Below are positions 20,753-64,000 of a stretch of 64,000 nt of DNA, piece by piece. A program made the position numbers and the translations under genes. Origin of the DNA: Octopus vulgaris. Taxonomy: Eukaryota. Position 1 is the stretch's first letter, and each line of letters opens with the position of its first letter. Under the pieces are notes generated by a model. The model ran no database searches. It was not told the DNA's origin and saw only the letters and a list, made by a program, of their open reading frames with translations. The stretch spans positions 14,694,001-14,758,000 of the forward strand of contig OX597817.1 in NCBI GenBank assembly GCA_951406725.2, given 5' to 3'.

Positions 20753-23668
20753 ATTGATTGATTGATTGATTGATTGATTCTAGTTTCAGCTTATGAGCTG
20801 TGGCCATGCTGGGGCACCGCCATTTGGTGTTGCTACTTGGTTTTACTTCATGGAGGCTTTCTAGCAACTGCTATTTGGTGCATGAGAGAGTTCGATGCAG
20901 CTGCCCTCATCTGCCCCTCCTGCCGTGAAGTTGGTTCATCTGGGACACCTGACAGGAAGAGATCCAGCTTCATTTTAAAGACATCTGTATCCACCCCATG
21001 CAGGTCTCTCAGGTTCTTCGGGAGGATATTGAAGAGCTGTGGGCCTCGGAAGCCCAGGCTATCACAGAATCTTGTCCTACATCTTGATGGCAGGTTTGGA
21101 GTCCTAGGCACCACGCAGTGGCGCCCAGTTCTGGCATTTGCGTAACTCTCGATGCCAAAGTTCAGGACACTTCCCTCCAGGATCTTCCAGATGTATATTA
21201 TGGCATATCTTTCCCGCCTACGCTCCAGGGAATATAATTTTAATCTCTTGAGTCTTTCCCAGTAGCTTACATTCTGCATAGAGGCTATCTTCTTTGTGTA
21301 GCTTCGTTGGATCGCCTCAAGTTCTGTGATCAACTTGACACTGGATGGTGACCATAGCTGAGAGCAATAGTCAAAGTGGCTTAGGACAAGTGTCTTCCAG
21401 AGGACCATCATGGTTTCTTGTTCTCTTGTTCTAAAGGTTCTAAGAATCCATCCAGCCAGCCGTCTACATTTCATTGTCAGTTTAGCAACATGTACATGAA
21501 AGGTCGCGTCATCACTCATGTGAATACCCAGGTCACGCACTGATTGTGCCTCTGGGATTGCAATCCCTCCGGGTCCAGTGTATTCATTGGGTATTGCATT
21601 CAGTTTTGCATGCTGATAGTATAAAGCTTGAAACTTTCCAGCATTGAACTGCATGCTATTCTTTTCAGCCCACTTGTATATTTCGTCCAGCTCACATTGC
21701 AGGTGTTTAGTGTCCTCAGGGTTCTGTATTGCCTGTGAAACTTTTGTATCATCTGCATAACTTGTGATCGTGGCTCTCTGCGTGGCTGAGGGCATGTCTG
21801 AGAGGGCCATTATGAACAGTAGTGGTCCCAGAACAGTGCCCTGCGGAACACCGCTCACTATTTGTGTGTTAATGGAGGTGGCCCCATTGGCTACTACCAC
21901 CTGACTTCTATCCTTCAGAAAGTCATGAAGCCATTCTCCCAGTTTTCCAACTATGTTGAGATCACGCAGTTTGTGACATATCATTCCATGATCGACTTTA
22001 TCAAAGGCCTTTGCAAAGTCGAGATATATCACTTCCACATTTGAGTGGTTGAGCAGCCGTTTCAGCACCCAGTCATAGTGTTGTAGGAGCTGAGTTAAAC
22101 AGCTTCTCCCTGGTCGGAAACCATGTTGGGTGTCGGGCAGCAAGTCATTCTCTTCAAGGAAGGTGATCAGCTTCCTTCTGACTATTCGTTCCATGACCTT
22201 GCTGATGTGTGAGGTCAGAGAGATAGGTCTATAGTTCTTGGCTTCCGCTCTGCTACCTCCTTTATGAATGGGGCATATTTTACCTTCCTTCAGTTTTCCT
22301 GGAAGTTTGCCAGCTGCAAGGAAGCTCTGAAAGAGGAACTGCAGTGGTCTTGCTAGGACTCTCTTACATGCTTTTAGGAGGATTGCCGGGAATCCATCGG
22401 GGCCAGTAGCTGAGTCTGTTTTCATTTCATCTATAGCCTTGGTTACATCGTCTTCCTTTATATCGATGTAATCTATCGTCGCCGCCTCTGATTTTATATC
22501 TGCAGTGGTAAAAAAGTCAGTTGGATTGGTGATTTGGAGATGCCCAAGGGGTGGAGTGAAAACACTCTTGAATTGCTCATTCAGTATTTCACTTACCCTC
22601 ATTGGTTTTCCTGTAAGTGTGCCATCCTTTTCGAGGAGTGGCCCTATTCTACAGTGCACTGTAGCTGTTTCTTTGGCATACCTGTAGAAAGCTCTGGGGT
22701 TAGATTTTATGTTTTCTATAGCCCAGGCTTCTTTGTCTGCTCTTTCTTTTTCATGGGAGAGTTGCAGACATTTTTCGATTTCCAACAGTTTTATTTTTAG
22801 GCGGGACTTTTCACTGCTTTCAATCTGTTTGTTTAGGCGATTTGAAAATTTCGTACGCCGTCTCATTAAAATTTTCCTCTCTCTGGGGATTTTGTTCTTG
22901 TGTACAGTGGCCTTTCTCTCTGGGACACATTTGTAGCATATGGCTTGCATTACAGACATGAATTGTTGAAGTTTCATGTCGATGTCTGGCGAGGAGAGAC
23001 ATTTAGGCCAGTTTTGTTTGAGGATCTCTTTCTCAATTTGTTTCCAGTTTGCCTTATGGTAGTTCAAGCTGGAAAGATTTTGAGGGTTTCTTGTAGGCTG
23101 CATGTCCGTGCTCTCTTTTGGCCCGTACATGGTCAGCTCTATCATGTTGTGATCCGAGAGTAGTGTCGGTGTCACTTTCACATTATGGATGAGATCCATG
23201 TCATTTGTGAAGCAGAGATCCAGTGTGTTACCTGCCCTGGTTGGTTGGAGTATTACCTGCTCCATGTACAGGGTGTTGATGAGGTTCAGGAGGGACCTCG
23301 CCTGTCCTCGTTCACATCTTGTCATTCCTGGGAGAGAAAGGCCCTCGGGCCATCTGACATTGGGCAGATTGAAGTCTCCCATAAGAAGCACACCTATGTG
23401 TTGTTCTAATGTGGTTAGAATTTCTTCTATTTTTATAAGGCAGTCTTCAAACTTGCCCACATGGCTTGGGGCATCTGGAGGGCGATATGTAGCACACACA
23501 ACTACATCAAGTTGCCTAATATGTACAATTAGTGTGTCACACACCGAGTTTGAGTATGACAAGAGGACCTGGGGTGTGAGGTCCTCACGGATGTACATAG
23601 CAACACCTCCATGGCTCCTTTCTTTCCTGTCGGTCCGTAGTACAGCATACTGTGGTATGTGTAACTAT
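20753..23668 (-). mobile_element. 5'-truncated CR1-group (CR1/L2/Crack-like) LINE, recent insertion
   Basis: Long EN-RT ORF, about 70 nt 3'UTR, (AATC)n tail at 20753-20778; GTATG on both sides (20748-20752, 23669-23673); splits an RTE remnant. Confidence 0.92.
20848..23661 (-). CDS. LINE ORF2: partial APE endonuclease + reverse transcriptase
   Basis: 916-aa ORF from 23598, open upstream to the truncation (HIPQYAVLRTDRKERSHGGVA). EN motifs YRPP, GDFN, TLDLCF, SDH; RT motifs NYRPISLTS, QHGFR, YLDFAKAFDKV, GVPQGTVLGP, YADD. Confidence 0.93.
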   Translation of the reverse strand, partial: HIPQYAVLRTDRKERSHGGVAMYIREDLTPQVLLSYSNSVCDTLIVHIRQLDVVVCATYRPPDAPSHVGKFEDCLIKIEEILTTLEQHIGVLLMGDFNLPNVRWPEGLSLPGMTRCERGQARSLLNLINTLYMEQVILQPTRAGNTLDLCFTNDMDLIHNVKVTPTLLSDHNMIELTMYGPKESTDMQPTRNPQNLSSLNYHKANWKQIEKEILKQNWPKCLSSPDIDMKLQQFMSVMQAICYKCVPERKATVHKNKIPRERKILMRRRTKFSNRLNKQIESSEKSRLKIKLLEIEKCLQLSHEKERADKEAWAIENIKSNPRAFYRYAKETATVHCRIGPLLEKDGTLTGKPMRVSEILNEQFKSVFTPPLGHLQITNPTDFFTTADIKSEAATIDYIDIKEDDVTKAIDEMKTDSATGPDGFPAILLKACKRVLARPLQFLFQSFLAAGKLPGKLKEGKICPIHKGGSRAEAKNYRPISLTSHISKVMERIVRRKLITFLEENDLLPDTQHGFRPGRSCLTQLLQHYDWVLKRLLNHSNVEVIYLDFAKAFDKVDHGMICHKLRDLNIVGKLGEWLHDFLKDRSQVVVANGATSINTQIVSGVPQGTVLGPLLFIMALSDMPSATQRATITSYADDTKVSQAIQNPEDTKHLQCELDEIYKWAEKNSMQFNAGKFQALYYQHAKLNAIPNEYTGPGGIAIPEAQSVRDLGIHMSDDATFHVHVAKLTMKCRRLAGWILRTFRTREQETMMVLWKTLVLSHFDYCSQLWSPSSVKLITELEAIQRSYTKKIASMQNVSYWERLKRLKLYSLERRRERYAIIYIWKILEGSVLNFGIESYANARTGRHCVVPRTPNLPSRCRTRFCDSLGFRGPQLFNILPKNLRDLHGVDTDVFKMKLDLFLSGVPDEPTSRQEGQMRAAASNSLMHQIAVARKPP

Positions 23669-39500: not shown

Positions 39501-39700
39501 TTCAGCTTAGCCCTTGTGCACAAAAATCTCCCAAGAGTGTGGAGAAGATTCTTCCTAGAATGATCATCATAACATTTAAAGTAATCCTTGTTCCACAGTC
39601 ATCTCAGGCTACAGCAAAACCATTGTTATGAATCTGAAATCATGTCCTGTCACTATTGATAAATCCCAAAATACAAAGCATTTTGGAGAATGCCTTTCTA

Positions 39701-39905
39701 TGATTGATTGATTCTAGTTTCAGCTCATGAGCTGTGGCCATGCTGGGGCACCGCCATTGTACCTCTCAACCGGACGGGGCCCCGGGACGATAGGATCCCG
39801 GGGCCGCAATGTGCGTTCGAGGTGTCAATGTTCACTGAGTCCTGCAATTCGCATCAGTTCATGCGGATAGCCGCGCTCTTCATCGACAGACGAGCCGAGT
39901 GATCC
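39701..39905 (-). mobile_element. 5.8S rRNA head + CR1-group LINE 3' tail chimeric retroposon
   Basis: 39701-39758 matches the LINE end at about 20763-20824 with one mismatch, including (AATC)n; CTATGAT on both sides (39698-39704, 39905-39911). Confidence 0.85.
39759..39905 (-). pseudogene. 5.8S rRNA retrocopy (lacks about the first 13 nt), not an rDNA unit
   Basis: Minus strand reads GGATCACTCGGCTCGTCTGTCGATGAAGAGCGC...GAATTGCAGGAC...TCGAACGCACATTGCGGCCCCGGGA..TCCCGGGGCC, the conserved 5.8S motifs; no ITS, 18S or 28S flanks. Confidence 0.92.
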
Positions 39906-40031
39906 TATGATCCTATGCTGGTGATTGCTTCACAAAGCATGCTCAACCAACTCCATGAAACTCAGAAGGAAGTTCCTACAATATTTGCAGTTTATAGTGA
40001 TGAAACTAAGAAAAAAAACACGCAATCATTA

Positions 40032-52170: not shown

Positions 52171-52429
52171 CTAGGGAAAAAGAGCACAGGAGAAAATTAA
52201 TGCTATTCTTAAAAGAACCAAGATGTCATTAATACATCTGATAAAAGTTTTAATAATGTCTCTTTTAGCAATAATATCATCACCATTTAATGTCCATTGT
52301 CCATGCTAGCATGGGCTGGATGACGTGACTAGAGCTGGCAGCCAGAGATCTACACCAGACTACAGTCTGATTTGGCATGGTTTCTACAGCTGGATGCCCT
52401 CCCTTACACCGACCACTTAACAGTGTGCT

Positions 52430-53800
52430 GGATGCTTTTACGTGGCACTGCACAGGCACTTTTACATGGCACTGCACAGGCACTTTTAAATGGCATCATA
52501 GATGCTTTTACATGACACCACACAGGCACTTTTGGTGTGTCACCACAAAGGAACTTTTGCATGTCACCGCACAGGTGCTTTCACATGTCACCGCACAGGT
52601 GCTTTCGCATGTCACCGCACAAGTGCTTTCGCATGTCACCGCACATGTGCTTTCGCATGTCACCGCACGGGTGCTTTCGCATGTCACCACACAGGTGCTT
52701 TCACATGTCACTGCACAGGTGCTTTCGCACGTCACCGCACAGATGCTTTCGCATGTCACTGCACAGGTGCTTTCGCATGCCACCGCACGGGTGCTTTCGC
52801 ATGCCACCGCACGGGTGCTTTCGCATGCCACCGCACAGGTGCTTTCGCATGTCACCGCACAGGTGCTTTCGCATGTCACCGCACAGGTGCTTTCGCATGT
52901 CACTGCACAGGTGCTTTTGCATGTCACCACACAGGTGCTTTCACATGTCACTGCACAGGTGCTTTTGCATGTCACCACACAGGTGCTTTCACATGTCACT
53001 GCACAGGTGCTTTCGCATGTCACCACACAGGTGCTTTCACATGTCACTGCACAGGTGCTTTCGCATGTCACCGCACAGATGCTTTCGCATGTCACTGCAC
53101 AGGTGCTTTCGCATGTCACTGCACAGGTGCTTTCGCATGCCACCGCACGGGTGCTTTCGCATGCCACCGCACGGGTGCTTTCGCATGTCACCGCACAGGT
53201 GCTTTCGCATGTCACCGCACAGGTGCTTTCGCATGTCACCGCACAGGTGCTTTCGCATGTCACCGCACAGGTGCTTTTGCATGTCACTGCACAGGTGCTT
53301 TTGCATGTCACTGCACAGGTGCTTTTGCATGTCACCGCACAGGTGCTTTCGCATGTCACTGCACAGGTGCTTTCGCATATCACTGCACAGGTGCTTTCGC
53401 ATGTCACCGCACAGATGCTTTCGCATGTCACTGCACAGGTGCTTTTGCATGTCACTGCACAGGTGCTTTTGCATGTCACCGCACAGGTGCTTTCGCATGT
53501 CACTGCACAGGTGCTTTCGCATGTCACCGCACAGGTGCTTTCGCATGTCACCGCACAGATGCTTTCGCATGTCACCGCACAGGTGCTTTCGCATGTCACT
53601 GCACAGGTGCTTTTGCATGTCACAGCACAGGCGCTTTTGCATGTTGCCGCACAGGCACTTTTGTGTGTCACAGCACAGGTGCTTTTGTGTGTTGTCACAC
53701 TGGCGATTTTGCATGTTGTTGCACAGGCACTTTTACATGTTGCCACATGGACCCTTTTAAAAGTTGCTGGACGAGTGCTTTTATGTGGCACCGCTATTGG
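52430..53800. repeat. 24-bp minisatellite (GCATGTCACCGCACAGGTGCTTTC)n, roughly 55 units
   Basis: Direct tandem periodicity of 24; homogeneous centre, degenerate edges. Confidence 0.97.
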
Positions 53801-53957
53801 TGCTTTACACAACCAGAAGGCTCAGTCTTAACACTTCCGCTATAGGGTACAGTAGCATGCAGTTCTATGTTTTGTATATTTCTGGTGTTTCAGTTCCATG
53901 GAAGTCTTCCAGAAGCTTATATTTGGTTTCACTGTGTTTGTTTTCAAGTGACTAACA

Positions 53958-63056: not shown

Positions 63057-64000
63057 TAATACATCTCAATGCTTCTAAAGCAAACTTTGTTTACTTTCAT
63101 AAGTTGAATTTAATGTTAGCATCTTATAAAGCTAGATTTATAAATCCTAAAATTGCAGAATAATTTGTCACTGGGCAGTTTAGCTTAAAGGTAAAGCACT
63201 TGATGCGTAACCACAGAGATGTGAGTTTGAGTCTCATGGCTGACTGCTGACAAATTTTTATGCAATATATCGATAGTTTATCCTGTTCATCCTATTGTAT
63301 TAGCATTATCCTGTGTTTGAGAATAAATTATTTCTGTATCTTTACAAAAAATGTTCTTTCAAGAACAATCATCATCATCTTTTATTTTCCAATTTTTCTA
63401 TGCTAGTATGGGTTAAATGCAATTTGTTAAAGCAGATTTTTACAGCTTGATGCTCTTACTGTTGCCAACCCCCAGTTCTTTTTCAAGCAAGGTATATTTC
63501 ATCTCACCAGTTTACACAAATCCACTGAACATTTGTTTATCGGCTACTGTAAACAATGTCACCATCTTTTACTCAGCTGTTAATATGGTTACAGAGAATC
63601 ACCAGTCACATGCAAACACACAAACACACATAAAATAAGCATAGACATGGTTGTGAGGGTAACATGCTTGCTTCCTAACCATATGGTCTTGTGTTTAGTC
63701 CCACCGTGCAGCATCTTGAGCAAGTGTCATCTACTAAGGCCTTGGACTGAGCAAAGCTTCATGGGTGGATTTGGTAGAAAGAAACTGAAAGAAGTACATT
63801 GTAGAAATGTGGGTGGGTTCTAAAAAGTGTTGGTTATAAAGAAGCATCACTGTCATACAAGTGATGTTCGTTTCCAGTCTTCCATGGAAAACACATTCGG
63901 ACATGGGAAAATATATCCTTACTTGGAAACAGGTGATGGCTGGTGACAAGAGCACCCAGCAACAGAAAATCTGCCTCAATAAATTCCATCTAATCTAAGC

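What the first reader, a model, noticed from the sequence alone, without database searches (positions are those of the whole stretch)
39698..39911. 5.8S rRNA fused exactly to a LINE 3' recognition tail: candidate 5.8S-headed SINE
Seen: about 147 nt of 5.8S rRNA, with the GC hairpin GGCCCCGGGA/TCCCGGGGCC intact, running to roughly the mature 3' end and joined to AATGGCGGTGCCCCAGCATGGCCACAGCTCATGAGCTGAAACTAG(AATC)n. That tail has one mismatch to the 3' end of the intact-ORF LINE at 20753. CTATGAT flanks both sides. The LINE-derived part starts right at the GGCGGTGC module also kept by SINE family A, i.e. the minimal conserved module. Established: SINE heads usually derive from tRNA, 7SL or 5S RNA, and one-off template-switch chimeras such as U6-L1 exist. 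I do not know of a well-characterised 5.8S-headed SINE family. 5.8S has no internal Pol III promoter, so amplification would need another route (upstream promoter, host transcript, or recurrent rRNA template switching or ligation). Inference: either a new SINE class or a CR1-group RT that captures 5.8S rRNA.
Basis: partly seen in the sequence, partly recalled or inferred. Interest (0 to 1): 0.85.

Follow-up and report, generated by a model that had tools for sequence, protein, structure and literature searches.

The report
5.8S rRNA captured by LINE tail
This is a single dead copy of 5.8S ribosomal RNA joined to the 45-base end-piece of a jumping gene, one of dozens of one-off RNA captures in this genome likely made when the copying enzyme hops between RNAs; the same end-piece carries a real, fast-spreading repeat family, so it may show how such families are born.

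Summary
The element is real, but it is not a 5.8S-headed SINE. Its junction pattern has 1 match in the 2.8-Gb genome. It is one of 46 dispersed 5.8S copies, among 93 loci examined, joined to a SINE or LINE tail. The 44 tabulated junctions all differ, partners vary, and target duplications bracket the whole chimera. U6 does the same: 61 U6/tail joins.

The larger finding is a fixed breakpoint. 53 of 90 sampled copies of this LINE tail begin 1-5 nt upstream of its 3' stem-loop. U6, 5.8S, 18S and a tRNA are grafted there. A young SINE with a tRNA-like head joins the tail at the same point: 721 matches, 97 of the first 100 with one junction. That is what amplification looks like, and 5.8S fails that test.

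Likely mechanism: reverse transcriptase reaches the end of a short template, adds untemplated bases and jumps to a U-ended RNA. This is a new variant of known U6/LINE chimeras. The scan noted rRNA/LINE and snRNA/LINE chimeras before in other genomes, none with 5.8S.

The parts
39762..39905 (-). 5.8S rRNA retrocopy, 144 nt, no ITS1 or ITS2; 4 substitutions against the rDNA array, all CpG transitions
39759..39761 (-). 3-nt untemplated linker beginning with T
39714..39758 (-). 45-nt LINE 3' module with two predicted hairpins; begins 3 nt before the recurrent GGCGG boundary
39703..39713 (-). (AATC)n terminal repeat of the LINE
39698..39702 (.). target-site duplication, copy at the 3' end of the element
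   Evidence: empty site
39913..39917 (.). target-site duplication, copy at the 5' end of the element
   Evidence: empty site
39906..39912 (.). extra letters at the 5' junction; with 39905 they form an 8-nt tandem repeat of target and 5.8S start, absent from the empty site
   Evidence: origin at insertion is inferred
20753..23664 (-). 5'-truncated APE-type LINE copy of the donor family; open frame 20848-23664 with endonuclease and RT domains, same 3' module
   Evidence: clade not determined (CR1/L2 group is a recalled resemblance)

Best explanation
The element is a single-copy 5.8S rRNA/LINE-tail chimera, inserted in one event and decaying, and likely made when a LINE reverse transcriptase jumped from the end of a very short LINE template to the 3' end of a 5.8S rRNA. 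Inferred steps: the LINE protein binds the 3' stem-loop, primes at a nick on the (AATC)n repeat and copies about 55 nt. It stops a few bases past the stem, either because the RNA ends there (a protein-protected remnant) or because the enzyme stalls. It then adds a few untemplated, mostly A, bases and continues on an RNA whose 3' end carries U, here trimmed 5.8S. The product has no internal promoter (established for 5.8S) and does not multiply; heads that bring a Pol III promoter can, and one joined at the same point did.
For: Single copy: 1 match for the junction pattern, control 0. Recurrence without shared ancestry: 44 of 51 ITS-free 5.8S loci have a SINE or tail partner (SINE B 29, C 5, D 4, A 3, tail 3), all with different junctions; 2 more by eye (L087; L300). 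One event: repeat score >=8 around the whole chimera in 20 of 44, around the partner alone in 3 of 44, shuffled pairs 2.4%; empty site in organism C. RNA origin: 44 of 51 start at positions 1-12 of the mature span. Jumps at template ends: most SINE partners begin at their first bases; 8 of 30 U6 loci join full-length SINEs and 2 join a second U6 5' end. RtcB ligation drops sharply with a 5' triphosphate (PMC6789731, passages), which Pol III transcripts carry (established). Linkers: first base T in 21 of 28 near-mature ends against 3 of 16 truncated ends, p=5e-4; 121 T of 203 letters. R2 RT adds mostly A and needs this to jump (PMC8857657, passages); L1 ORF2p also adds bases and jumps (PMC10830420, passages). 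Fixed boundary: 53 of 90 tails start 1-5 nt upstream of the stem, 7 of 90 in the next 95 nt; all 11 U6/tail joins among 30 U6 loci lie there. Positive control: 721 matches of a tRNA-like head on this tail, 97 of the first 100 with one junction, a private substitution in 29 of 30, 98.9% mean identity.
Against: All mechanism steps are inferred from DNA; no RNA run was laid. 24 of 44 chimeras have no repeat scoring >=8, and 7 of 51 loci have no partner in my small library. After the leading T run the linkers are mixed (83 T, 45 A, 24 C, 13 G); C over G is not significant, p=0.10, so RT-added and RNA-borne tails cannot be separated. PMC8857657 calls a 3-nt A overhang nonproductive for jumping under its conditions and attributes human L1 chimeras to prior ligation. 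Many bare tails sit in (AT)n, so target microhomology may sharpen the boundary, and the search for extra bases at bare tails was uninformative. The listed contigs cover the 3' flank/tail join but none shown bridges the 5.8S/tail join.
Confidence: 0.72

Rival explanations
1. RNA ligation first: the LINE RNA is cut just upstream of its stem-loop, leaving a 5'-OH fragment that RtcB joins to 5.8S or U6 ending in a cyclic phosphate; the fused RNA is then retrotransposed.
For: Shown for human U6/L1 (PMC6789731, passages). A defined cut would explain the sharp boundary. U6 is the commonest partner of the tail (61 matches).
Against: Does not account for joins to intact 5' ends of SINE RNAs or of U6, nor for mixed untemplated linkers, nor readily for a tRNA with a T-ended trailer (L160). 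Human U6/L1 junctions are variably placed with 4-8 T.
Confidence: 0.15
2. Sequential or DNA-level events: a 5.8S pseudogene was there first and a tail or SINE inserted beside it, or rDNA-derived DNA was patched in during repair of the insertion.
For: ITS-bearing rDNA fragments are scattered in this genome (about 30 of the 86 loci, array units included). 3 of 44 chimeras have a repeat around the partner alone.
Against: The empty site lacks both parts. Chimeras follow mature RNA ends and are all in sense orientation. Duplications bracket the whole chimera far more often.
Confidence: 0.06
3. A true but low-copy or nascent 5.8S-headed SINE, amplified from a master locus under a borrowed promoter.
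For: Three 5.8S/tail copies with the same tail start exist. SINEU shows that heads without internal promoters can amplify (PMC4494074, passages). My counts are lower bounds: patterns allowed 0-3 mismatches and the DNA search scored 40 of 689 candidates.
Against: No two copies share a junction or a diagnostic change. Kojima's test, an abundant LINE with the same 3' end making independent chimeras likely, points the other way: 1155 exact tail matches. A real SINE on this tail shows hundreds of identical junctions.
Confidence: 0.03

Closest known systems
U6/L2, U6/Mon-1 and U6/AnolisSINE2 chimeras of platypus and lizard (PMC4476161; section 10 read whole, other passages)
   Same: Small RNA in sense orientation upstream of a short piece of a stringent LINE or of its SINE; short target duplications; attributed to template switching.
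   Different: Partner here is 5.8S (0 mentions in that main text), mostly near full length. The LINE piece here starts at one fixed site, which the passages read do not report.
Human small-RNA/LINE-1 chimeras: U6, U3, 5S, tRNA, 28S, Alu (bioRxiv 10.1101/2025.02.02.635956, passages; PMC6789731, passages)
   Same: Recurrent independent events, U6 dominant, rRNA pieces included, one duplication around the pair.
   Different: 5.8S is not mentioned in either main text (supplements not seen). L1 junctions are variably placed. Ligation is the shown route there, whereas here joins to intact SINE 5' ends argue for jumping.
SINEU (PMC4494074, passages); SINE3 and SINE28 (as listed in PMC10946416, passages)
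   Same: Head from a structural RNA; SINEU lacks an internal promoter, as 5.8S does.
   Different: Those are families descended from master copies with shared structure. The 5.8S chimeras share no junction or diagnostic change. The review's table of rDNA in mobile elements, in the passages seen, names 5S, 28S and IGS, not 5.8S.
End-to-end template jumping by R2 and L1 reverse transcriptases (PMC8857657, PMC10830420; passages)
   Same: Untemplated addition beyond the template end followed by continued synthesis on another RNA fits the linkers.
   Different: Shown in vitro for other clades; not tested for this LINE.

Membership tests
SINE family (5.8S-headed) | Many copies with the same head/tail junction | tested here: not met
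   1 match; 44 of 44 junctions distinct; control SINE 97 of 100 identical
SINE family (5.8S-headed) | Diagnostic substitutions shared among copies and absent from the source gene | tested here: not met
   Only shared non-CpG change among the 30 commonest is also in old rDNA fragments
SINE family (5.8S-headed) | 3' end shared with a partner LINE | tested here: met
   57 of 58 letters
SINE family (5.8S-headed) | Own transcription from a promoter carried or borrowed | not tested
   No RNA run laid; 5.8S has no internal promoter (established knowledge)
SINE family (5.8S-headed) | Entry in Repbase, Dfam or SINEBase | not testable with these tools
   Libraries not held
Chimeric retrocopy (U6/LINE type) | Cellular RNA copy in sense orientation 5' of a LINE or SINE 3' part | tested here: met
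Chimeric retrocopy (U6/LINE type) | One target-site duplication around both parts | tested here: met
   Empty site; 20 of 44 against 3 of 44 and 2.4%
Chimeric retrocopy (U6/LINE type) | Independent origin of each copy | tested here: met
Chimeric retrocopy (U6/LINE type) | Route: template switch or RNA ligation | tested here: inconclusive
   Sequence favours jumping; no RNA or enzyme data
CR1/L2-group LINE (donor of the tail) | APE endonuclease plus RT, 3' stem-loop and short tandem-repeat end | tested here: met
CR1/L2-group LINE (donor of the tail) | RT phylogeny placing it in a named clade | not tested
   Atlas gave only generic RT clusters; no tree built

The most novel reading that the evidence does not exclude
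This LINE group routinely produces a bare ~45-nt recognition module with a defined 5' end (hundreds of genomic copies), likely a protein-protected RNA remnant, and its reverse transcriptase grafts onto it whatever U-ended RNA is near: U6, 5.8S, 18S, pre-tRNA, SINE heads. That would be a working SINE factory seen with both its failures (promoterless heads, one copy each) and a success (a ~700-copy young SINE joined at the same site), and would explain why SINEs share only the minimal stem-loop with their LINE.
Probability: 0.35. Interest if true: 0.78.

Novelty: new variant of a known kind. Interest (0 to 1): 0.56.

Why it matters
How SINEs acquire the 3' end of their partner LINE is usually explained by template switching, but the proposal rests on finished families. 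Here one genome holds the bare module, many single-copy grafts and one amplified graft at the same breakpoint, in at least four tail families for U6. That makes the proposal directly testable. 5.8S as a recurrent captured RNA was not found in nine literature searches, which cover open-licence papers only. The chimeras also record 5.8S 3' ends and an older rDNA allele. The single element itself is inert.

Tried and rejected
Position-127 change as a family marker: rejected, it is in 8 old ITS-bearing fragments. L104 as a fresh capture: rejected, it belongs to the amplified SINE and is not among the 53. Extra bases at bare tails: uninformative, only 12 of 55 gave a non-simple repeat of 6 or more and several look spurious. 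L165/L196 as a family: only those 2 matches genome-wide; their tRNA origin is recalled, Rfam did not call it. Rfam did not score the SINE heads as tRNA at E<=0.05, so 'tRNA-like' rests on A- and B-box-like motifs seen by eye. 18S 3' end as control: of 30 of 38 matches examined, 1 is on a tail (L249), 4 end at the mature end with no known partner, 25 continue into ITS1-like sequence. Folding: the 106-nt LINE end has z -1.23, the 58-nt module z -2.24, the SINE A end z -2.66, so the hairpins are modest predictions. Sequencing runs: only contigs were served; the four laid were DNA-guessed or untyped; zero depth at 39925-39999 in three runs is not evidence. Earlier-finding look-ups by sequence and by place returned nothing. 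Rows dropped before the count of 51: 32 loci set aside by hand as ITS-bearing or rDNA-like (three of them borderline: L053, L062, L082) and 3 that the first alignment missed (L085-L087).

Full report
Observation. The minus strand at 39762-39905 holds 144 nt of 5.8S rRNA (RF00002, 100.3 bits), 97% identical to an rDNA array on contig C20 (7 units about 18.4 kb apart). Then come a 3-nt linker, a 45-nt module matching the 3' end of the window's LINE, and (AATC)n. Its 4 substitutions are CpG transitions, as expected of a methylated, decaying copy. A contig of organism C crosses the site with only 8 letters between 39913 and 39689, the empty allele; contigs of organism A (two studies) and organism B run from the flank into the tail. 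The insertion is therefore real at its 3' join, shared by A and B and absent from C, with a 5-bp duplication. The host looks like an octopus (2.8 Gb, about 30 large contigs, repeat sequences recalled; not tested).

Is it a family? No. A pattern spanning the 5.8S 3' end and the tail has 1 match. Searches for 5.8S gave 93 loci that I fetched. I set 32 aside as rDNA-like, 3 were missed by the first alignment and 7 came later. Of the 51 tabulated, 44 are joined to a retroposon: SINE B 29, SINE C 5, SINE D 4, SINE A 3, LINE tail 3 (family letters are mine). L087 and L300 add two SINE B cases. Three partner calls are weak (L073, L083, L084). All junctions differ. Of 568 substitutions 292 are at CpG; the one widely shared other change is an old rDNA allele. 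Repeats bracket the whole chimera in 20 of 44, the partner alone in 3 of 44, shuffled pairs in 2.4%. These are independent single insertions.

The tail. Its 35-mer has 1155 exact matches. Among the first 90 listed (contigs C1 and C2, young copies only), 53 begin 1-5 nt upstream of the predicted stem (95% interval 48-69%), 7 begin 6-100 nt upstream and 30 run further into the LINE. A pattern from the 3' half, on a largely overlapping set of 30, gave 13 at the boundary, 3 cut 3-5 nt into the stem and none deeper, so the peak is not made by my pattern. On these bare tails sit U6 (L090, L109), a tRNA with a T-ended trailer (L160) and an 18S fragment (L204). An 18S 3' end sits on a sister tail (L249).

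U6 as comparison. The U6 3' end has 613 matches. Of the first 30 exact ones, 8 look like genes or have no partner, 11 join a tail at the stem base (four tail families), 7 join full-length SINE A, 2 SINE B (one weak) and 2 a second U6. Genome-wide, 61 U6/tail joins match exactly, with varied short linkers. 5.8S prefers SINE B (29 of 44) and U6 does not (2 of 20), p=3e-5. This is unexplained; age of the samples or different LINE machineries could cause it.

Positive control. A SINE C head joined to this same tail gives 721 matches; 97 of the first 100 share one junction 3 nt before the stem, and 29 of 30 share a private substitution, at 98.9% mean identity. Its head shows A- and B-box-like motifs by eye; Rfam did not call it tRNA. 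The junction has 5 nt of near-homology with the LINE, so it may have formed by annealing rather than a blunt jump.

Mechanism. Shown: RNA-derived heads, sense orientation, one insertion, joins at the first bases of SINEs and at a fixed tail site, T-rich untemplated linkers (T first in 21 of 28 near-mature ends, 3 of 16 truncated). Inferred: the enzyme copies to a template end or stall, adds mostly A and continues on a U-ended RNA, as R2 and L1 enzymes do in vitro (PMC8857657, PMC10830420; passages). Ligation by RtcB, shown for human U6/L1, needs a 5'-OH and is reduced by a triphosphate (PMC6789731, passages). It could serve the bare tail but hardly intact SINE or U6 5' ends (their 5' chemistry is established knowledge, not tested). 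Whether the T comes from uridylated 5.8S (seen in C. elegans, PMC7472701, passages) or from the enzyme is open. Whether the boundary is an RNA end or a stall is open too.

Comparison. It works like, and meets the tested features of, small-RNA/LINE chimeric retrocopies, closest to U6/L2 and U6/SINE chimeras in platypus and lizard (PMC4476161, section 10). It fails SINE membership by the criteria in PMC4494074 (passages). 5.8S is absent from the main texts of PMC4476161, PMC6789731, PMC4494074 and bioRxiv 10.1101/2025.02.02.635956 (supplements not seen and could list it). PMC5322556 used 5.8S as a query and, in the passages seen, reports no tailless copies of it. PMC4758252 names template switching as the proposed source of SINE modules (passages). 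Searches combining 5.8S with template switching gave 0 papers, as did one for a truncation hotspot at the stem-loop. Subscription literature, Repbase and Dfam were not searchable.

Verdict. The element is a one-off chimera, not a SINE: new variant of a known kind. Interest 0.56, carried by the fixed breakpoint and by the amplified SINE at the same site rather than by this copy.

Noticed in passing
L270-L299 (e.g. G000:C1:4180788); also L104: Young ~210-nt SINE: tRNA-like SINE C head on the same LINE tail, own (CAAAA)n-type end, 721 matches, 98.9% identity among 30.
   Followed up: yes
L210-L239: 613 U6 3'-end matches; 20 of the first 30 are chimeras with SINEs or LINE tails.
   Followed up: yes
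L227, L232: U6 joined head-to-tail to a second U6; L227 also has a tRNA-like end upstream. Suggests double jumps.
   Followed up: partly
L217-L223 (G000:C1:139422701-139429774): Cluster of 7 U6 gene-like copies spaced 1.0-1.4 kb.
   Followed up: no
L018:1501-1875: Three-part chimera: 5.8S, SINE C head, sister-family tail.
   Followed up: partly
L165, L196 (L307, L308): Two independent bare tails carry the same ~15-nt GC-rich piece plus different T-ended trailers; resembles a tRNA 3' end (recalled, not called by Rfam); only these 2 genome-wide.
   Followed up: partly
5.8S position 127 across L002-L084: Old rDNA allele shared by 31 chimeras and 8 old rDNA fragments; could date insertions.
   Followed up: partly
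5.8S and U6 loci: Partner bias: 5.8S mostly on SINE B, U6 mostly on SINE A and tails, p=3e-5; unexplained.
   Followed up: partly
L033, L063, L069, L081: Mature-ended 5.8S copies with unidentified partners; L063 has a short A/T-rich tail and an apparent duplication.
   Followed up: no
L089:2037-4679: 18S rRNA spans 2643 nt against a model of 1831.
   Followed up: no
L201: Two LINE tails lie head to head in opposite orientation across a short AT run.
   Followed up: no
window 52371-53845: Tandem repeat giving long repetitive open frames on both strands; probably not a gene.
   Followed up: no
window 63174-63245: tRNA-like match just above the Rfam cut-off (30.3 bits); may be a SINE head.
   Followed up: no
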